DNA from: Escherichia coli
GTDB taxonomy: Bacteria; Pseudomonadota; Gammaproteobacteria; Enterobacterales; Enterobacteriaceae
Length of the DNA: 64,000 nucleotides
Direction: 5' to 3' (one strand)
Assembly: GCF_003018255.1 (NCBI RefSeq)
Contig: NZ_CP027440.1
Shown: piece by piece, positions 1 to 21,045 of the stretch
Position numbering within the stretch: the first letter of the stretch is position 1
Layout: the number at the start of each line of letters is the position of its first letter
Made by a program: the position numbers and the translations under genes
Notes under the pieces: generated by a model
Databases searched by the model: none
What the model was told of the DNA's origin: nothing
Seen by the model: the letters and a program-made list of their open reading frames with translations, nothing else

Positions 1-663
1 CGGGAAGCAAGCGTTTCATCATCGGGCGGCGGTGCTTTGATAACCGGTGCTTCGCCTTGCAGATAACGATTAATATCGCGCAGCAACGCCTGCGGCCCTT
101 TCCAGGTTTCAAAGACCACCTGGGCAATTTCACGCGGCAGCGGGTAGCAGTGGCGACGCCAGAAATCGGCGCAGGCCTGGTAGCGTAGCAGAGACTCATC
201 TTCAATCAGCTGCTGCTCAAACAGCATGCCGGATTCAAAGGCATTCAGGTTGAGCATGCGCTGGCAAAAACCGTGAATAGTAAAGACTGCCGCTTCATCC
301 ATCTGCCGTTCGGCTAACAACAACCACTGCGCGGCTTGCGCTTTATCGTCGATCTCCTCCAGCAGGAGTTTGTACAGTGGATTGTCGGTGGTTTCACGCA
401 GACAGGCGATGCGCAACTCGTGGATATTGCTACGGATACGACCGCGCAATTCTGCCGTGGCAGCCTCGGTAAAGGTGACCACCAGCAGTTCTTCAACGGT
501 CAGCGGGCGGGGAAAGGCGGCAGAACCGCCTAGTCCAAGTAACAGGCGCAAATAGAGCGCCGCAATCGTAAAGGTTTTGCCTGTGCCGGCAGAGGCTTCA
601 ATCAGGCGCTCGCCCTGTAAGGGCAAGCGCAAAGGATCTAGTGTCTCGGCGACATCACTCATT
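1..663 (-). CDS. recB: RecBCD helicase/nuclease subunit RecB, N-terminal fragment; the gene runs off the window start
   Basis: Reverse complement of 641-663 encodes MSDVAET; a Walker A motif (ASAGTGKTF) follows near aa 25-32. The start overlaps the ptrA stop. Confidence 0.9.
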
Positions 664-3543
664 CTTTTCACTCATCAGGGGCATTGTTTGCTGCAACGCG
701 CTGACGTTCTCCCACACTTTCCAGCCTTCAGGATGCACATATTCGGCTTTCCCGTTCTGGCTGCCGGAAATCTGCGACAGAATAGCCATGCCTTGCGGCT
801 CGACCACCGCCTGATGGAAGAAATCAGCAAGTTTTTGCGGCGTCAGCAGTTTTATCTGGGCCACGATTTTATCACGCGAATCGAAGCGCATATTGCCGCG
901 ATCGAAATCTTTACTTAACTTCGATGCTTCTTCGCCGAGCGTTTGCGGTGCCTGCAGCATCTGGGTTATTACCGCCTGCTGGATTTGCGCAAACTCCTCT
1001 GGCTTCATCGCCCGCAATTTTGCCTCTGCGGTTGGGAAAAACGCCTTGTAACGCTCCCACAAGAATGAAGGCTGTTTATCATTGCTTTGCAAAAGGAAGC
1101 CCATGCCCCACTGACGCCCCACGCTCATTGGAAACGCAAACACGGCATAGCCCAACTGTTCTTCGGTACGCAACTGATTGTAGAACCACGGCTGTACGAT
1201 CTGCCCCAACAGAGAGCTATAGGCTGAGCTGGTGTATTCATCGTAGCCAGTCGGTACAAATACCGCTGCCAGTGCGGAGTCGGTGCTGTTACCGGCTTTT
1301 TCAAAGATGACAGATTGTTTTTTATCGACCACGACATCTTTGTTACGGCACCACTCCGAACCATCAGCGCCCAACTGTTTTTGCACATCGCGTGCCAGCG
1401 TTGTTGCCTGGGCTTCGGTCATGTTGCCAATAACCATAAACTCTGGTCGAGCCCCTGATTTTAAGGCGTCGCGATAGGCCAGCACCTCTTTCAAAGTGAT
1501 TGAAGGCAAAATTTTGCGCCGTTCATCTCGCGAGAAGTACGGCACTTGCGAGAGCATCTGCGCGGGCATAATCGCCTGCTCGAACGCTTTGCCCTTTTCT
1601 GCGGAATCCATCATCTGGTTATACCAGGACTTCGCCTGCTCAAGCTGATCTTCCGTAGCGGTATAGCTAAAGTACCCCTCGAGCAATGCCTGGAACAGCT
1701 GCGGCAGACGCTGGGTGTAACCATTAGCATTAACCATAAGGCCGTTGTTAGCGTTGGTGGAAAAACTAATGCCACCAACCGACGCCTGGTTGCTTAACTG
1801 ATCAAGCGCTAGCCCGGCAAGATAATCATTGAGCGCAAACATCACCTGATTGCGGGCGCTGTCCATGGCTTTCGGATTACGCAAAATCAGGCTGACATCA
1901 GCTTTGGGTTCGCTGGAAAAATAACGGCTTGGCGCATAGACCACACGCAGATTCGACTCATCAACAATAAGCTCTGGATGGTCATATTTCTTCTCTGACT
2001 TAATCAGCGAGAAATCGTCAGGAATATAGGGGTTAAGCTCTGGCAAAGAGAGCGCAATGTCGGCGGCTTTTTTCTGCCAGTCAGCGAAAGTTTGTGCGCT
2101 AATTTTATCGACCTGATACGGCGCATCGACAAAGTAAGCCGTTTTGTTGTGCGGCTCTTTCGGGCTGATATACCAGATACGCGCATTCTGCGGCGTCATC
2201 ATCGCCAGGCGTTCTTTTACTGCTTTAGCGTCGTACCGATCGGCAATATTGACTGCATCCAGCGTATGCTCAACAGGAACGCGAATCATGGTATCTGCCA
2301 GCCATTCGACGTAATCCATATCACGGGTGATTGACGGATAACGAAAGTCGATATCCAGCACATTCGCCAGTTCATCGAAGTATTGTTTATCAATCCCTTT
2401 TTCGCGTAACAGATTGAGGTAGCTAAAAATGGCCGCCACAACCTGATCGCGATTCGCCAGACCTTTATCGGTTAAAGACGCAGAGATCGCTAATACGCCG
2501 CTGTTGCCGTTGACGATAGGATCGGAATTGGCGCTAATGCCCTCAACTAATCCCTGCTTTTGCAGCCAGTCAGAAAGTGTACCTGGGCTGCGATTACCGA
2601 TCAGATAGGTAATCAATTCATCCGTTTTACTACGGAACTTCGCTGAATTGTTATCGATGCGAAACTCAACGCGCAGAACTTTACGCGGCAGCGCCGGGAC
2701 GTAATGAATGATAATACCTTTTTGCGCGTCGGTGACTACCGGCACGGTGATTTCCGGTTTTTTGCTCTCTTTGTTCGGCACGCGACCAAAGGTGTCCGCC
2801 GCCATTTTTGCCAACTCCGGCAGCGGTTTATTGCTGTAAATAACCGCCTTCATCAGATTGGCAGAGTAATATTTCTCGTGAAAATCTTTCAGCGCCTGCT
2901 GCACCGGATTTCCGGGTTTGTCGCTTAAAGTTTCGAGGTTACCACCAGAAAACTTTGAACCGGGGTGTGCCGGGTTAATGGTTTCTGCGCTGACCTGTGC
3001 CATGCGCATCCCGTCACGCGTACGCGCCATGGTTAATTCGGCATTCACTGCATTACGTTCACGTTCGGCGTATTTCTTGTCGAGCAAGGGTTCTGCAATA
3101 GCGTCCGCCAGGCGGTCTACCGCACCGGGCAAGGCGTCGTTCTCAACTTCCAGATAGAAAGCCGTGCGATACGGTGCCGTGCTGGCATTGTGACTGCCGC
3201 CGTGCATTTTGAGATATTCGGCCAGACTGTCAGCCTGCGGGTACTTTTTCGACCCCATCAGACTCATATGTTCAAGGTAATGTGCCAGCCCCTGGTACGC
3301 CTCGGGATCTTCCAGCGACCCAACGGGCACTACCAGCGCCGAGAGCGATTTAACCGCCTGCGGATCAGAAACCAGCAAGACCACCATACCGTTATCCAGA
3401 CGTATAGCCTGATACTGGCGGTTATCTTTATCACTTTTACGGATGGTTTCCTGAATCGGCTGCCATCCCGTTTCTGCCTGACTTAAGGGTGCCCAAAGGG
3501 CAACAAACAACAATAATGCTTTGAACCAGGTGCTGCGGGGCAT
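655..3543 (-). CDS. ptrA: Protease III (pitrilysin), periplasmic M16 zinc metalloprotease
   Basis: 962-aa ORF with an N-terminal signal peptide and the inverted zinc-binding motif HYLEH. Confidence 0.93.
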   Translation of the reverse strand: MPRSTWFKALLLFVALWAPLSQAETGWQPIQETIRKSDKDNRQYQAIRLDNGMVVLLVSDPQAVKSLSALVVPVGSLEDPEAYQGLAHYLEHMSLMGSKKYPQADSLAEYLKMHGGSHNASTAPYRTAFYLEVENDALPGAVDRLADAIAEPLLDKKYAERERNAVNAELTMARTRDGMRMAQVSAETINPAHPGSKFSGGNLETLSDKPGNPVQQALKDFHEKYYSANLMKAVIYSNKPLPELAKMAADTFGRVPNKESKKPEITVPVVTDAQKGIIIHYVPALPRKVLRVEFRIDNNSAKFRSKTDELITYLIGNRSPGTLSDWLQKQGLVEGISANSDPIVNGNSGVLAISASLTDKGLANRDQVVAAIFSYLNLLREKGIDKQYFDELANVLDIDFRYPSITRDMDYVEWLADTMIRVPVEHTLDAVNIADRYDAKAVKERLAMMTPQNARIWYISPKEPHNKTAYFVDAPYQVDKISAQTFADWQKKAADIALSLPELNPYIPDDFSLIKSEKKYDHPELIVDESNLRVVYAPSRYFSSEPKADVSLILRNPKAMDSARNQVMFALNDYLAGLALDQLSNQASVGGISFSTNANNGLMVNANGYTQRLPQLFQALLEGYFSYTATEDQLEQAKSWYNQMMDSAEKGKAFEQAIMPAQMLSQVPYFSRDERRKILPSITLKEVLAYRDALKSGARPEFMVIGNMTEAQATTLARDVQKQLGADGSEWCRNKDVVVDKKQSVIFEKAGNSTDSALAAVFVPTGYDEYTSSAYSSLLGQIVQPWFYNQLRTEEQLGYAVFAFPMSVGRQWGMGFLLQSNDKQPSFLWERYKAFFPTAEAKLRAMKPEEFAQIQQAVITQMLQAPQTLGEEASKLSKDFDRGNMRFDSRDKIVAQIKLLTPQKLADFFHQAVVEPQGMAILSQISGSQNGKAEYVHPEGWKVWENVSALQQTMPLMSEKNE

Positions 3544-3718
3544 TCACGGACCTCATAATCAACTTTATTTTCTGGCCAGATTCAACAGGTTAACGCAAAT
3601 CATCTGCCAGAATTTAATCTTGTGCTGAACGAGTCAGCCTATGTCTATATATCCATCAGTCCGTGACTGGTGCGCATCATAAAGCAAGCAGATATATTGC
3701 GCAATTTTTATACAGCAC

Positions 3719-6700
3719 TCATGACTGATTAAAGCGAAACAGCGGTAACAGGAAACGTTGCGACTGTTCAACGATAGCCTCCATTGTCTCTGGTGTTAAT
3801 TGCCGCCAGAGCCGTTGATACCAGATATCATCACCTTCGCCACGCACCATCATGTTGCCTTCGTAAGCCTGAAGGAATTTCGTACGGGCTTTTTGTAACG
3901 TGGAATCGTCATCCAGCATGGCATCGTTTTGCGCGTCATAACAGGTTTTTAGCCACGCGCCGCCACTTTCAGGTAACACCAGCAATGGCGCGGACATTCC
4001 TTCACGATACCCCTCAATCAGTTGTGAGAGGTAATGCAAAGCCTGTTCGGCTGCAAGCGGCGGAAAACGCCACTCGCCGTCTTTGCGTAGAAAAAGGCGA
4101 CTTTCACCATTACCACCGCTGGCACAGTAGACAAGGTGTTCCAGCCAAAGTTGCATTCCCTGCGCCACACTTAATAAAGAGGGACGCCAGCGCAACAGGC
4201 CATCCGGCTGCACCTGCGGCAACCAGCCAGTTATCTGCACACCGTTGCAGGCGAGATCAATTTCCATACTCTGCCCCGGCTGGCGACGTGCAATGACTCT
4301 GTCGGCAAGCTGCTGCATCTCCTGGCACTGTGTTTCCCAGAAAATTTCACCAAAAGCGCCATACGGTAAATCCCCTGCCGCCCGGAAGCGGCGGAATAAG
4401 CGATCGGCATCATCCTGCTCAACCAGTGCATTCAATAACTGCTGATTGATTTGATAACGGCTAAGCCCTTCCAGAATAAATGGCTCGGTGTCGGGGATTT
4501 CGCTGTCTTCAGTACGGAAGTTCACCTGCAAACGCATCTGGAAGAACGCCCGTACCGGATGTGCCCAGAATCGTTGTAGCGTTTCCAGCGGCACGGTTTC
4601 CGGTAAGGTAAACGGCAGCGGCTGAACAAATTCAGAATGTGCTTTACCAGCCTGGCTGGCCGCAGGTAGCCATTCACGAGCATAGCTTTGTCGTTCGCCT
4701 GGCTGGTAGTTTTGCGGATCAAACGGCATCCGGGTATGGAGGCAAGTAAGATGCGCTTTTACCCTTGCCTCGCTTTCATCACAGTTGAGCGCTTCATCGC
4801 CCGGTAGATAATGGCTTTGCCCGATGTAGTCGATCAGTTCCTGCACCAGTACCGACGGGAAACGTTCACTGTTATCCTGAATAGAACGCCCGATATAGCT
4901 GATATAGAGTTTTTGCTGCGCGGAAATTAACGCTTCCAGGAACAGATAGCGGTCGTCATCGCGACGGCTACGGTCGCCACGCTTCGGTTTCTGGCTCATC
5001 AGGTCAAAGCCCAATGGCGCAAGCTGGCGTGGATAAACGCCGTCGTTCATTCCCAGCAGGCAAACCACTTTGAATGGGATGGAACGCATTGGCATCAGAG
5101 TACAAATGTTAACCGGTCCGGCGAGAAAACGCTGGCTGATACGTTCCTGATCCAGGCGCTGTGCCAGTTCATCACGCAATAGTGACAGCGGCACCGCGTC
5201 GCCATACTGCGCACCTAAACCTTCGGCGATAATCGCCTGCCATTGTTGTTCGATCAGCGTCATAGCCGCTTCGGTTTCCGCATCCGGCAGGAAGAAGGCG
5301 TTGAGCATATCGCGACAAACCGGCAACCACTCTTCCAGCGGACGCTCCTGCGCCAGCCCGCGACGCCAGATGTTTAGCTGCATTAGCAGTGAAGCCAGAT
5401 GCCCCACCAGTTCTGCAATTAAGCCGCTCGATTCATCATAAGGTAGAACCGATTGCCACTCGCCCTGCGCGCTCTCCATCGCGTAGCCCAGCAACATACG
5501 CGTCAGGCCAAATCGCCAGGTGTGTTGTCCGGTGGCGGGGAGTTCCAGCTCGCGAACGTTGTCGTCATCTATCCCCCAACGAATGCCGGATTCGTTGACC
5601 CACTGGCGTAAATAACGCAGCCCTTCTTCGGTGATGTCAAACCGCGCCGCCAGCACCGGCACATCCAGCAGCGCCAGCACATCCTCTGACACAAAGCGAC
5701 TGTCAGGCAGTGATAACAGGCTGATAAACGCTTCCAATACCGGATGTGACTGCCGCGCCCGACGGTCGGAAATGGCGTAAGGCAGGTAACGATCCGCAGG
5801 TGCGCTACCAAACACAGCCTGAATAAACGGACTGTAGCTGTCGATGTCGGCCACCATCACGATGATGTCGCGCGGAGTCAGTGTCGGGTCTTCCTCCAGC
5901 ATCGCCAGCAGGCGATCGTGTAAAACTTCAACTTCACGCTGCGGGCTATGGCAAACGTGAAAGGTGATACTGCTATCCAGTGGATCAAGCGGGCGTTTGT
6001 TATCGCTACGGGAAAACTCTTCGATGTTTACACCAGCAACGGCGCGGTTTTCCAGTTCCAGAATGTCAGACTGAATGTTATGCAGCAGGTTATCTGGCGT
6101 AACATCGACAAAAGCGTCCAGCTCCTGGCTGCTCTCCAGATCAGAAAGGAGATAAATGTAGTCGCGCCCAAGCTTGCCCCATGAGGCCAGCAGCGGGTTG
6201 CCGACATCCTGTTCACCATCGCTGTTAAAGAGCTGCCCGGCATTTTCGCTGTCGCGAAATAGCGGTAATTCTCGATCTTCAAAACTGTGTCGGCGCTGGC
6301 GAGTCAGTAGTTTCGCCAGATAAGCAGGATCTTTAATGTCGCCCCAGTAATAACGGCAGGGGTTGGTAAACAGGAGATGGATTTCAATATGTTTACCCAG
6401 CGCCTGGAGTGCCTGGAGATAAACAGGCGGTAACGCGGAAATACCGCATATAAAGACGCGCGAAGGTAACCCCGGCGGGCAGGTCGTCGCGGACTCCAGC
6501 GTTTCGATAAAGCGCTGATAGAGATTGGCGCGGTGCCAGCGCGGTTGCCCGAGTTCATGGGTATATTCCACCAACGCCTTCCACAACGGCGCTTGCCAGG
6601 CCTGTGCTTCTCCCAGCCCTTCAACCAAATGTCCTATTTCCCACTGTGCCAGCCAGTCCGGACGATAGACCAGATACTGGTCAAACAGGTCCGCCGCTTT

Positions 6701-7087
6701 TGAAGAAAGCTGGAACAGTTTTCGCTTGTCGCTATCGTCAGTCAGATAATGCCGCAACAGGGTAAAGTCTTCGCGCTCCAACAGTTGCGGCAGCAGAGTC
6801 ATCAGTTTCCAGCTCATGCTCTGTTTGTTAAAGGCGCTCTCTTTGGGGATTTCCGGTAACACCCGGACGAACATATCCCAGATAAAGCTCGCTGGCAGCG
6901 GAAAATCAATGTTTGCCGCAATACCAAACTTTTGCGACAGGGTCATTTGCAGCCACTGCGCCATACCGGTACTTTGCACCAGAATCATTTCTGGTTCGAA
7001 AGGATCGTCCAGCCGTTCGCGTTCGACGATAAACTCCATCAACGCTTCCAGCACGTCCAGACGATTGGAATGGTAGACCCTTAACAT
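3719..7087 (-). CDS. recC: RecBCD subunit RecC
   Basis: 1122-aa ORF of RecC length, in the conserved recB-ptrA-recC arrangement. Confidence 0.93.
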   Translation of the reverse strand: MLRVYHSNRLDVLEALMEFIVERERLDDPFEPEMILVQSTGMAQWLQMTLSQKFGIAANIDFPLPASFIWDMFVRVLPEIPKESAFNKQSMSWKLMTLLPQLLEREDFTLLRHYLTDDSDKRKLFQLSSKAADLFDQYLVYRPDWLAQWEIGHLVEGLGEAQAWQAPLWKALVEYTHELGQPRWHRANLYQRFIETLESATTCPPGLPSRVFICGISALPPVYLQALQALGKHIEIHLLFTNPCRYYWGDIKDPAYLAKLLTRQRRHSFEDRELPLFRDSENAGQLFNSDGEQDVGNPLLASWGKLGRDYIYLLSDLESSQELDAFVDVTPDNLLHNIQSDILELENRAVAGVNIEEFSRSDNKRPLDPLDSSITFHVCHSPQREVEVLHDRLLAMLEEDPTLTPRDIIVMVADIDSYSPFIQAVFGSAPADRYLPYAISDRRARQSHPVLEAFISLLSLPDSRFVSEDVLALLDVPVLAARFDITEEGLRYLRQWVNESGIRWGIDDDNVRELELPATGQHTWRFGLTRMLLGYAMESAQGEWQSVLPYDESSGLIAELVGHLASLLMQLNIWRRGLAQERPLEEWLPVCRDMLNAFFLPDAETEAAMTLIEQQWQAIIAEGLGAQYGDAVPLSLLRDELAQRLDQERISQRFLAGPVNICTLMPMRSIPFKVVCLLGMNDGVYPRQLAPLGFDLMSQKPKRGDRSRRDDDRYLFLEALISAQQKLYISYIGRSIQDNSERFPSVLVQELIDYIGQSHYLPGDEALNCDESEARVKAHLTCLHTRMPFDPQNYQPGERQSYAREWLPAASQAGKAHSEFVQPLPFTLPETVPLETLQRFWAHPVRAFFQMRLQVNFRTEDSEIPDTEPFILEGLSRYQINQQLLNALVEQDDADRLFRRFRAAGDLPYGAFGEIFWETQCQEMQQLADRVIARRQPGQSMEIDLACNGVQITGWLPQVQPDGLLRWRPSLLSVAQGMQLWLEHLVYCASGGNGESRLFLRKDGEWRFPPLAAEQALHYLSQLIEGYREGMSAPLLVLPESGGAWLKTCYDAQNDAMLDDDSTLQKARTKFLQAYEGNMMVRGEGDDIWYQRLWRQLTPETMEAIVEQSQRFLLPLFRFNQS

Positions 7088-7099
7088 AGCGGCTCCTGA

Positions 7100-7423
7100 C
7101 TACTGACGATTCGGGCAATGCAGGCGGGTCATCTCGCCTTCTCTGCCCCCGGGTGAAACTAGCGTAACGCTGATGCTGACACATCCCGCCTGCGATGTCT
7201 GCATTCGGTTGACCTGCCAGTTAGCAGGTGGCGAAATCGCGCGCAGTTGCGTTTGCTGCCAGCCATGCCGCCAGAGCTGTTGGTACTGGTTTCTGCTGGC
7301 AAGACTGTTCATTAATGTTCGCTGGAAACCCGATAACGCAGTGACAATCATCACCATCAACACCATCGCCAACATTACCTCCGGCAGACTAAAGCCTTGT
7401 TGATTCCTCAGGGAAGCTGACAT
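7100..7423 (-). CDS. ppdC: Prepilin-like protein PpdC
   Basis: Internal start [17 protein letters not shown] gives 107 aa with a prepilin-type N-terminus; the longer 136-aa frame is taken as a spurious upstream extension. Confidence 0.75.
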
Positions 7424-7815
7424 AACGCCCTCTCTTTCAGCGGACAAAAATCGCTCCAGCCGCGTGGCGAAAAAACAATGTTTCCATCGATGACTTCGCC
7501 TGTTCGCCACAACGAAACGCCTTCATAACCAGCAATCAATAAGGCTTCATTATCTGCCAGTAAACGCAGACAAACCCGGGCACCGGTGGCAGCATACAGT
7601 AAGCACTGAACTGCGGGCAGCGTCTGCCAGGAGTGCATTTTTCCCCACTCCAGCGCCGACTGAACGATGGCCTGGCGGCGCAATGACTGACTTTCCATGC
7701 TCACGCGAGAAGCAAAACTGCGATCCTGCTGACTCATTCCTTGCAATAGCAAGCTACCCAAAATCAGCAGCATCAGGACCAGAGCCAGTGACGAAACACC
7801 CTTTTCGCGGTTCAC
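7408..7815 (-). CDS. ygdB: Small membrane-anchored protein YgdB of the ppd operon
   Basis: 135-aa ORF with a hydrophobic N-terminus; overlaps ppdC by 16 nt and ppdB by 4 nt. Confidence 0.75.
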
Positions 7816-8375
7816 AGGTTGGATCCTGTCACGCTATAGCTGGCATCCACCACGGTTTGCGGATCAGCCTTGCTGGCAGCGTGCATATTAACCGTCAACA
7901 CCGGCGAGAAGCCGCTGACATCCTGACGTACGACCTGAAAAGTGTCGATAATGATGGCATCCGGATTAGTGACTTTATCCCAGCCCTTACCTTCACAGGA
8001 TGTCGCACCGCGTAGCGTTTCCAGCACATGCTCCTTCAGACGAAATCCAATCTGGTCGGACTCTTTTACCGGTTCGCGATCCCAGATACCATTACTGTTC
8101 GCATCCCACTGCACAATGACACAGTCACCCTGTCCGACAATTTCCAGCCCTTCGCCCGTACAGCTGCCATGGCAATAACCCGCCCTCTGGAGATGCTTCG
8201 CGACGGTAAATACCCGCAGCCAGATTTCATCTTCCAGCGCCAGCTTACGGGTGTTCGTTAAACTTTCACGCTGTAACGCAGGCAGAAAGCGTGCAGCCCC
8301 CAGCAACAATACGCTACTGATCGCCATAGCAATCAACACTTCCAGCAGAGAAAAACCTTGCTCTTTTACAGGCAT
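7812..8375 (-). CDS. ppdB: Prepilin-like protein PpdB
   Basis: Internal start [19 protein letters not shown] gives 187 aa with a prepilin N-terminal motif; the 267-aa frame is an upstream extension. Confidence 0.75.
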
Positions 8376-8836
8376 CCTTCTGTTTCTCCTTGCTGACAAA
8401 GCCGGAGTCTTCCCCACGGCGAAACCACTAGCCACCACTCGCCCGTTGAGTTTTTGAAGCGAATATGCCCGGCCCATGCGGTATTGCGCAGGCCAAAGAA
8501 AGCAAGCGAAGGTGTCAGGTCGCTCATTTCGACTTCGGGCCAGCGCGGCACAAAGACCAATGGTGAACTGCCATGACAGGTATTCGCCCCAGCAACGGAA
8601 CTCACAAGGCACCATAACGTCCCCTCCCTGATAAGACTGATACTGTGGTCGCGGTTATGCCAGTTGGCATCTTCACGTAAATAGAGCAAATAGTCCCGCG
8701 CCTGGCTGGCGGTTTGCCAAAGCCGTTGCGACTGCTGCCAGTATTGCCAGCCATAAAGCCCACTTGCGCTTAGCATGACCAGAATCAGCATCGCGACCAG
8801 CGTTTCAATCAGCGTATAACCACGTTGTGTTTTCAT
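8366..8836 (-). CDS. ppdA: Prepilin-like protein PpdA
   Basis: 156 aa; N-terminus [16 protein letters not shown] is a type IV prepilin leader with the conserved Glu. Confidence 0.82.
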
Positions 8837-17328: not shown

Positions 17329-20695
<3,367 letters not shown>

Positions 20696-20761: not shown

Positions 20762-20849
20762 AAAAAAAACCTGCGCATCCGCGCAGGTTGGTGCAAGAGA
20801 CAGGGTACGAAGAGCGTACCGAATAATCTCACCAATCAATACCTCTGGG
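20762..20849 (-). ncRNA. omrA: OmrA small regulatory RNA (OmpR-regulated, Hfq-dependent)
   Basis: 88-nt minus-strand sequence beginning CCCAGAGGUAUUGAUUGGUGAG and ending in a CCUGCGC...GCGCAGG hairpin plus U8. Confidence 0.9.
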
Positions 20850-20963: not shown

Positions 20964-21045
20964 AAAAAAAACCTGCGCATCTGCGCAGGCTGGTGTAATT
21001 CATGTGCTCAACCCGAAGTTGACTTCACCTATCAATACCTCTGGG
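20964..21045 (-). ncRNA. omrB: OmrB small regulatory RNA, paralog of OmrA
   Basis: 82-nt minus-strand sequence beginning CCCAGAGGUAUUGAUAGGUGAAG and ending in a terminator hairpin plus U8; it shares 5' and 3' ends with omrA. Confidence 0.9.

What the first reader, a model, noticed from the sequence alone, without database searches (positions are those of the whole stretch)
655..7087. ptrA nested between recB and recC with overlapping stop and start
The recB start codon (663) lies inside the last codons of ptrA (stop at 655), and ptrA is separated from recC by 175 bp. A periplasmic protease is thus co-oriented and probably co-transcribed with two subunits of the recombination nuclease.
Basis: partly seen in the sequence, partly recalled or inferred. 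Interest (0 to 1): 0.25.

Follow-up and report, generated by a model that had tools for sequence, protein, structure and literature searches.

The report
Known E. coli ptrA-recB-recD operon junction
This is the long-known E. coli arrangement in which the gene for a periplasmic protease (ptrA) sits between the DNA-repair genes recC and recB and overlaps the start of recB by 8 bases; it is real but ordinary and already described.

Summary
On the minus strand, recC is 7087..3719 and ptrA (pitrilysin) is 3543..655. recB starts at ATG 662..660, not 663, so ptrA and recB share 8 nt (ATGAGTGA). The recC-ptrA gap is 175 bp.

The window is E. coli chromosome, and 5423 of 5426 complete E. coli genomes carry the same 7.6 kb. 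All 27 other Enterobacteriaceae loci examined (25 where the contig reaches recC) keep recC-ptrA-recB. The junction itself drifts: 8-nt overlap, 4-nt overlap, gaps of 2 or 11 nt, and 130 nt in one genus.

- ptrA-recB-recD is one operon and recC belongs to another.
- The recB ribosome-binding site lies inside ptrA, suggesting translational coupling.
- The operon is induced by sigma-E and limited by Hfq at the ptrA 5'UTR.
- ptrA is thought to be an insertion into an ancestral recC-recB-recD operon.

My own analysis agrees. A conserved sigma-70-like promoter sits just after the recC stop, no terminator is evident, and recB has a weak Shine-Dalgarno. Co-transcription with recC is not established.

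One weak new lead is a patch of synonymous-site conservation about 200 nt upstream of recB.

Verdict: already known, low interest.

The parts
3719..7087 (-). recC (exodeoxyribonuclease V gamma subunit), 1122 aa; stop TGA 3721..3719
   Evidence: ORF. NCBIfam NF008289 scores 2125 bits against a cut-off of 1470. PGAP annotation of the identical record.
3544..3718 (-). 175-bp recC-ptrA intergenic region, i.e. the ptrA promoter and 5'UTR
   Evidence: Sequence. Alignment of 13 genera. No terminator-like site and no unusual folding (z -0.5).
3676..3704 (-). Sigma-70-like promoter: -35 TTGCGC (3704..3699), 17-nt spacer, -10 TATGAT (3681..3676)
   Evidence: Conserved as ATTGCGCA-N17-TATGAT in 12 of 13 genera and in Salmonella and Klebsiella. 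The position agrees to within about 10 nt with 'promoter 76 nt upstream of the Hfq site' in PMC12342828. Assigned by conservation, not by transcript mapping.
3654..3667 (-). Conserved 5'UTR block GTCACGGACTGATG, function unknown
3558..3593 (-). Counterpart of the 36-nt Hfq-binding region deleted in PMC12342828; 3 substitutions relative to K-12
   Evidence: Sequence comparison. Experimental role reported in the paper.
3551..3554 (-). ptrA Shine-Dalgarno GAGG, 7 nt before the ATG
   Evidence: Invariant in all 13 genera. Anti-SD duplex energy is -6.3 kcal/mol.
655..3543 (-). ptrA (pitrilysin / protease III), 962 aa; signal-peptide-like N-terminus; HYLEH zinc motif at residues 88-92
838..912 (-). 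Patch of highest synonymous-site conservation within ptrA (codons 878-902). It contains the extended -10-like TGATAAAAT at 874..866. Candidate embedded element, unverified.
   Evidence: (z 3.3, permutation p 0.014). No conserved RNA fold. The motif alone is not significant.
655..662 (-). 8-nt ptrA/recB overlap ATGAGTGA: recB ATG 662..660, ptrA TGA 657..655
   Evidence: Same overlap in Escherichia, Salmonella and Citrobacter.
671..673 (-). Weak SD-like GAG, 8 nt upstream of the recB ATG, inside ptrA codons
   Evidence: Best anti-SD duplex is only -2.5 kcal/mol, against -6.3 for ptrA and -6.6 for recC. A (G)GAG at this position recurs in most of the other genera.
1..662 (-). recB 5' part (first 220 codons; the gene runs off the window), with Walker A at GTGKT

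Best explanation
This is the known Enterobacteriaceae recC / ptrA-recB-recD locus.

Transcription of ptrA, recB and recD starts at a promoter in the 175-bp gap just downstream of the recC stop. It is sigma-70-like, and published work adds sigma-E induction. The roughly 125-nt 5'UTR carries an Hfq site next to the ptrA ribosome-binding site.

Ribosomes translate ptrA, whose product is exported to the periplasm, and terminate at TGA 657..655. That is 5 nt past the recB ATG at 662..660. recB has only a weak Shine-Dalgarno embedded in the last ptrA codons. Its initiation is therefore most likely fed largely by ribosomes finishing ptrA (translational coupling or re-initiation), which keeps RecB output low. 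recD follows recB with a 1-nt overlap and a strong Shine-Dalgarno.

The protease has no known role in recombination. Its position is best read as a historical insertion into an ancestral recC-recB-recD operon. The insertion placed recB and recD under the protease's promoter and its envelope-stress and Hfq control.

Shown here: gene identities, coordinates, the overlap, the weak SD, the conserved promoter-like element, the absence of a terminator, and conservation of gene order.
Taken from the literature: the operon, sigma-E induction, the Hfq effect, and the insertion hypothesis.
Inferred: that the overlap itself mediates coupling.
For: - Coordinates and identities.
- 5423 of 5426 complete E. 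coli genomes hold the whole 7.6 kb.
- All 25 Enterobacteriaceae loci from the genome scan (23 where the contig reaches recC), plus Salmonella and Klebsiella, keep recC-ptrA-recB. In 26 of 27 the junction is an overlap or a gap of at most 11 nt.
- The promoter-like element and the invariant ptrA SD are conserved.
- No terminator and no special RNA structure in the gap or at the junction.
- The recB SD is weak.
- No sigma-70 consensus match within 2 kb upstream of recB.
- PMC12342828: two operons, recB RBS inside ptrA, and a 5'UTR deletion that halves recB mRNA and doubles RecB translation efficiency.
- PMC2731931 and PMC2909356: sigma-E induction of ptrA, recB and recD.
- PMC10545897: ptrA is treated as the first gene of an operon with recB and recD in Serratia.
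- PMC2828478: uninterrupted recC-recB-recD with overlapping frames in Pseudomonas syringae.
- Endozoicomonas PtrA homologues (31% identity) have no recB or recC beside them.
Against: - The exact junction is not conserved: 8-nt overlap, 4-nt overlap, gaps of 2 and 11 nt, and a 130-nt insert in Dryocola. The overlap as such is therefore not indispensable.
- Coupling has not been tested directly. The Hfq and 5'UTR result is indirect.
- A patch of synonymous constraint about 200 nt upstream of recB leaves room for an additional internal promoter or other element.
- The insertion history rests on a citation I could not read (Cromie 2009; one search failed) and on only a few outgroup loci here.
Confidence: 0.85

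Rival explanations
1. An internal promoter or other regulatory element lies in the 3' part of ptrA, around window 838..912, with the extended -10-like TGATAAAAT at 874..866. It supplies a meaningful share of recB-recD mRNA independently of ptrA, and the stop/start overlap is incidental.
For: The strongest synonymous-site conservation in the whole ptrA gene lies at codons 878-902 (z 3.3, permutation p 0.014). TGATAAA(A/G)T is kept in 16 of 17 sequences from 14 genera. There is no conserved RNA fold to explain the constraint. [quoted passage not shown]
Against: The motif alone is at chance frequency: 74 matches in the window against 99 expected. It has no usable -35, and the consensus scan finds nothing there. 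The constraint signal is modest, comes from related sequences, and coincides with a very conserved peptide. Deleting the distant ptrA 5'UTR already halves recB mRNA. As I recall it (not verifiable here; searches failed), the 1986 recB sequence paper reported no recognisable promoter.
Confidence: 0.15
2. recC, ptrA, recB and recD, possibly starting from ppdA, are also expressed as one long read-through transcript. On this view the protease is co-transcribed with all three nuclease subunits, as the first reader implied for recC.
For: There is no intrinsic terminator between recC and ptrA. recC rises 4.5-fold together with ptrA (10.7-fold), recB and recD on sigma-E over-expression, and is listed with them as a putative operon (PMC2731931). 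ppdA-ppdB-ygdB-ppdC-recC are tightly packed on the same strand, and the arrangement is conserved in Salmonella and Klebsiella.
Against: The literature describes two separate operons. A conserved promoter sits in the gap. The gap is kept at 125-182 bp in nearly all genera rather than collapsing. Rho-dependent termination cannot be assessed here.
Confidence: 0.25
3. The 8-nt overlap is a neutral by-product of compact operon packing. RecB initiation is independent of ptrA translation, so there is no functional coupling.
For: The junction geometry varies among genera and tolerates a 130-nt insert in Dryocola. Overlaps are common: 9 of 35 same-strand pairs in this window. No RNA structure sequesters the recB start (z 0.1).
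Against: The recB SD is very weak. The tight junction is retained in 26 of 27 loci. Altering the ptrA ribosome-binding region changes RecB translation efficiency 2.9 kb downstream.
Confidence: 0.2

Closest known systems
E. coli K-12 ptrA(ptr)-recB-recD operon in the thyA-argA region
   Same: It is the same locus. Gene order is recC-ptrA-recB-recD, the recB RBS lies inside ptrA, and recC is separate (PMC12342828; PMC2586629). The 7.6 kb is 95-100% identical across E. coli genomes.
   Different: Only strain-level differences. For example, there are 3 substitutions in the 36-nt Hfq region of the 5'UTR relative to K-12.
Uninterrupted recC-recB-recD operon, e.g. Pseudomonas syringae Lz4W
   Same: The same three nuclease genes lie on one strand with overlapping reading frames (PMC2828478).
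   Different: There is no protease gene between recC and recB. Here ptrA with its own promoter splits recC from recB-recD.
Classical translationally coupled cistron pairs with overlapping stop and start (the trp and gal operon cases cited in PMC12342828)
   Same: Stop/start overlap and a downstream start with a weak SD of its own inside the upstream gene.
   Different: Dependence of RecB synthesis on ptrA translation has not been measured directly. The partners are functionally unrelated and go to different cell compartments.
recB-recD junction of the same operon
   Same: An overlapping stop and start within the same transcript (TAATG, 1 nt).
   Different: recD has a strong SD (GGAGGAGG). recB has almost none.

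Membership tests
Enterobacterial recC / ptrA-recB-recD locus | Genes are pitrilysin, RecC and RecB | tested here: met
   NCBIfam equivalogs: pitrilysin scores 1854.7 bits against a cut-off of 765, and RecC scores 2125.2 against 1470. The RecB fragment aligns to positions 2-221 of the model; it is truncated, so it falls below the full-length cut-off.
Enterobacterial recC / ptrA-recB-recD locus | Order recC-ptrA-recB-recD on one strand | tested here: met
   recD is seen in the identical record just outside the window.
Enterobacterial recC / ptrA-recB-recD locus | recB start overlaps the ptrA end | tested here: met
   8 nt, ATGAGTGA, at 662..655.
Enterobacterial recC / ptrA-recB-recD locus | Promoter between recC and ptrA | tested here: inconclusive
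   A conserved TTGCGC-N17-TATGAT is present, at the place implied by the paper. The simple consensus scan did not call it, and no transcript data could be examined.
Enterobacterial recC / ptrA-recB-recD locus | One mRNA spans ptrA, recB and recD | not testable with these tools
   Published, not tested here. No terminator is seen in the sequence.
Translationally coupled overlapping cistrons | Upstream stop at or within a few nt of the downstream start | tested here: met
   The stop lies 5 nt after the recB ATG. The junction is an overlap or a gap of at most 11 nt in 26 of 27 related loci.
Translationally coupled overlapping cistrons | Downstream gene lacks a strong ribosome-binding site of its own | tested here: met
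   The anti-SD duplex is -2.5 kcal/mol, against -6.3 for ptrA and -6.6 for recC.
Translationally coupled overlapping cistrons | Downstream translation depends on upstream translation | not testable with these tools
   Only indirect published evidence exists: the 5'UTR/Hfq-site deletion changes RecB translation efficiency.
Pitrilysin (M16A zinc metallopeptidase, periplasmic) | Inverted zinc-binding motif HxxEH | tested here: met
   HYLEH at residues 88-92.
Pitrilysin (M16A zinc metallopeptidase, periplasmic) | N-terminal export signal | tested here: inconclusive
   MPRSTWFKALLLFVALWAPLSQA/ETGW looks like a Sec signal on inspection. No predictor was run.
Canonical contiguous recCBD operon | recC immediately followed by recB | tested here: not met
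   2889 bp of ptrA plus a 175-bp gap lie between them.

The most novel reading that the evidence does not exclude
The patch of unusually strong synonymous-site conservation inside the 3' end of ptrA (window 838..912) contains a conserved extended -10-like TGATAAA(A/G)T about 200 nt before recB. It may mark an undescribed internal promoter or regulatory element. Such an element would let cells make RecB and RecD independently of the sigma-E- and Hfq-controlled ptrA message.
Probability: 0.12. Interest if true: 0.35.

Novelty: already known. Interest (0 to 1): 0.08.

Why it matters
The arrangement explains why the RecB and RecD subunits of the main double-strand-break repair enzyme are made in tiny amounts. 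It also explains why they respond to envelope stress (sigma-E) and to Hfq: they ride on the message of an unrelated periplasmic protease. All of this is already in the literature, so the finding adds nothing new. Its practical use is as a reminder that ptrA mutations can be polar on recB and recD. The only open point worth an experiment is whether an internal element in the 3' end of ptrA contributes to recB expression.

Tried and rejected
1. The original 1986 sequence papers (recB, ptr), Amundsen 1986 and Cromie 2009 are not held. Statements about them are second-hand, via PMC12342828 and PMC2586629, or from memory.
2. Transcript-level data gave nothing. The SMRT-Cappable-seq supplements contain no recB, ptrA or recC entries, and the dRNA-seq paper is not held.
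3. The text held for the Rhodius 2006 sigma-E paper does not mention ptr or recB, probably because the tables are not held. By eye I could not place a convincing sigma-E promoter (GGAACTT-N16-TCTGA, from memory) in the gap. The conserved GGACTGA...GCTGA is a poor match, so it is left unassigned.
4. RNA structure as a coupling device is rejected. The junction fold has z 0.1 and the gap fold has z -0.5.
5. RNA structure as the cause of the synonymous constraint is rejected. The alifold energy is -5.5, against a gene-wide -6.9 +/- 3.8.
6. The protein homologue search listed only relatives of at least 83% identity. It therefore did not extend the comparison beyond Enterobacteriaceae. More distant Enterobacterales, Vibrio and Pasteurellaceae were not examined, apart from the Serratia paper.
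7. A sigma-28 SELEX peak inside recB is unrelated to the junction.
Full report
**Observation.** All genes discussed lie on the minus strand.
- A 962-codon ORF runs from ATG 3543..3541 to TGA 657..655. A 1122-codon ORF runs from 7087 to 3719.
- Direct reading of the junction gives ...GAA AAG AAT GAG TGA in the first frame and ATG AGT GAT GTC GCC... in the frame of the next gene. That ATG is at 662..660.
Everything else is exact: stop at 655, 175-bp gap at 3544..3718, recC ending at 7087.
- The two frames share 8 nt, ATGAGTGA.
- NCBIfam identifies the products as pitrilysin (1854.7 bits, cut-off 765), RecC (2125.2 bits, cut-off 1470) and the first 220 residues of RecB.
- The protease has the HYLEH zinc motif and a signal-peptide-like N-terminus. 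The RecB fragment has its Walker A motif.

**Source and frequency.**
- The first 7.6 kb of the window is 100% identical to an E. coli chromosome. It is present nearly full-length in 5423 of 5426 complete E. coli genomes.
- PGAP annotates recD, recB, ptrA, recC, ppdC, ygdB, ppdB and ppdA in a row on one strand, with exactly these coordinates.
- Overlapping neighbours are ordinary here. In this stretch, 9 of 35 same-strand adjacent pairs overlap, and lplT/aas also overlap by 8 nt.

**Relatives.** A scan of one genome per species with PtrA returned 25 Enterobacteriaceae loci and 3 Endozoicomonas loci.
- Every Enterobacteriaceae locus has recB downstream of ptrA, and recC upstream in 23 of 25; in the other two the contig ends inside ptrA, or the recC match is fragmentary in a frameshifted assembly. 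So do Salmonella and Klebsiella.
- The junction varies:

| Junction | Genera |
|---|---|
| 8-nt overlap | Escherichia, Salmonella, Citrobacter |
| 4-nt ATGA overlap | Klebsiella, Enterobacter, Lelliottia, Leclercia, Huaxiibacter, Shimwellia, Entomohabitans |
| 2-nt gap | RIT714 |
| 11-nt gap | Cedecea, Buttiauxella |
| 130-nt palindromic insert | Dryocola |

- Close apposition is therefore maintained, but the particular overlap is not.
- The Endozoicomonas homologues (31% identity) have no recB or recC beside them.
- In Pseudomonas syringae the three rec genes form one uninterrupted operon with overlapping frames (PMC2828478).

**Signals.**
- An alignment of the recC-ptrA gap from 13 genera shows a conserved ATTGCGCA-N17-TATGAT right after the recC stop. 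In the window this is -35 at 3704..3699 and -10 at 3681..3676.
- The same alignment shows a conserved block GTCACGGACTGATG (3667..3654) and an invariant GAGG Shine-Dalgarno. All three are also present in Salmonella and Klebsiella.
- There is no terminator-like hairpin between recC and ptrA, and the gap does not fold unusually.
- The junction has no stable structure.
- recB's best anti-SD pairing is only -2.5 kcal/mol, against -6.3 for ptrA and -6.6 for recC. recD is preceded by GGAGGAGG.
- The consensus scan finds no sigma-70-type promoter within 2 kb upstream of recB.

**Literature.**
- PMC12342828 (eLife 2025) states that RecBCD is encoded by two operons. One is for recC and the other is polycistronic for PtrA, RecB and RecD.
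- It also states that the recB RBS lies within ptrA, suggesting translational coupling. It adds that ptrA probably entered by horizontal transfer into the usual recC-recB-recD order.
- The same paper maps Hfq binding next to the ptrA RBS. Deleting that 36-nt region halves recB mRNA and raises RecB translation efficiency from 7.9 to 16.3 proteins per mRNA.
- So recB mRNA comes at least largely from the ptrA promoter. Events at the ptrA start are felt at recB, 2.9 kb downstream.
- The window carries that site at 3593..3558 with three substitutions relative to K-12.
- Sigma-E over-expression induces ptrA 10.7-fold, recB 4.5-fold, recD 3.1-fold and recC 4.5-fold (PMC2731931; see also PMC2909356).
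- In Serratia, ptrA is treated as the first gene of an operon with recB and recD (PMC10545897).
- From memory, and not verifiable here, the 1986 recB sequence paper already reported the ptr-recB overlap and the lack of a recognisable recB promoter.

**Mechanism.**
- The best-supported reading is the known one. A promoter just past recC drives ptrA-recB-recD.
- Ribosomes finishing ptrA terminate 5 nt beyond the recB ATG. Because recB has hardly any SD, they are probably the main source of recB initiation, which keeps RecB scarce.
- Transcription across the junction and regulation from the ptrA 5' end are shown in the literature. That the overlap itself mediates coupling is inferred.

**A weak lead.**
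- Across 15 Enterobacteriaceae ptrA sequences from 13 genera, synonymous-site identity corrected for amino-acid composition peaks at codons 878-902, window 838..912 (z 3.3, permutation p 0.014 for the maximum window).
- The patch holds TGATAAAAT (874..866). This is TGATAAAGT in the Klebsiella/Enterobacter clade. It is an extended -10-like motif about 200 nt upstream of recB.
- No conserved RNA fold explains the patch.
- The motif alone is at chance frequency, and the sequences are related. This is a lead, not a finding.

**Verdict.** The feature is already known and is of low interest.

Noticed in passing
window 838..912 (- strand), motif at 874..866: This is the strongest synonymous-site conservation within ptrA (codons 878-902; z 3.3, permutation p 0.014). 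It contains the extended -10-like TGATAAA(A/G)T, conserved in 16 of 17 sequences from 14 genera, about 200 nt upstream of recB. It may be an internal promoter or other embedded element.
   Followed up: partly
window 3654..3667 (- strand): GTCACGGACTGATG in the ptrA 5'UTR is conserved across Escherichia, Salmonella, Citrobacter, Klebsiella, Enterobacter, Lelliottia and Huaxiibacter, with one change in Leclercia. Its function is unknown. It is a poor match to a sigma-E -35.
   Followed up: partly
window 3558..3593 (- strand): The 36-nt Hfq-binding region characterised in K-12 (PMC12342828) differs here at 3 positions. Whether Hfq control of RecB differs between E. coli lineages is untested.
   Followed up: no
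L016:7890-8019 (Dryocola boscaweniae): A 130-nt insert separates ptrA from recB. It folds into a long imperfect hairpin (-42.8 kcal/mol, z -2.4). From memory it resembles an ERIC/IRU intergenic repeat. It shows that the tight junction can be broken.
   Followed up: partly
window 7100..8836 (- strand): ppdA-ppdB-ygdB-ppdC form a chain of overlapping genes ending 12 bp before recC. The chain is conserved in Salmonella and Klebsiella. recC is probably transcribed with these prepilin-like genes.
   Followed up: no
window ~31737..32960 (yqeG end, tRNA-Gly(CCC) at 32053..32126, actS): yqeG is followed directly by tRNA-Gly(CCC) and actS. From memory, K-12 carries the degenerate ETT2 type III secretion island at this tRNA. 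It appears to be absent in this strain.
   Followed up: no
window 20762..20849 and 20964..21045 (- strand): The OmrA and OmrB sRNA genes lie in tandem (Rfam RF00079; 96.6 and 86.1 bits). This is the expected E. coli arrangement between aas and galR.
   Followed up: no
window ~18515..18522: lplT and aas overlap by 8 nt, the same geometry as ptrA/recB.
   Followed up: no
summary (E. coli genomes): One plasmid record carries a match to this chromosomal 7.6 kb, and at least one genome has two places. Three of 5426 genomes lack a near-full-length copy.
   Followed up: no
L029 (Leclercia adecarboxylata NCTC13032): The ptrA, recC and recB matches are fragmented as if frameshifted. This is probably assembly error rather than pseudogenes.
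   Followed up: no
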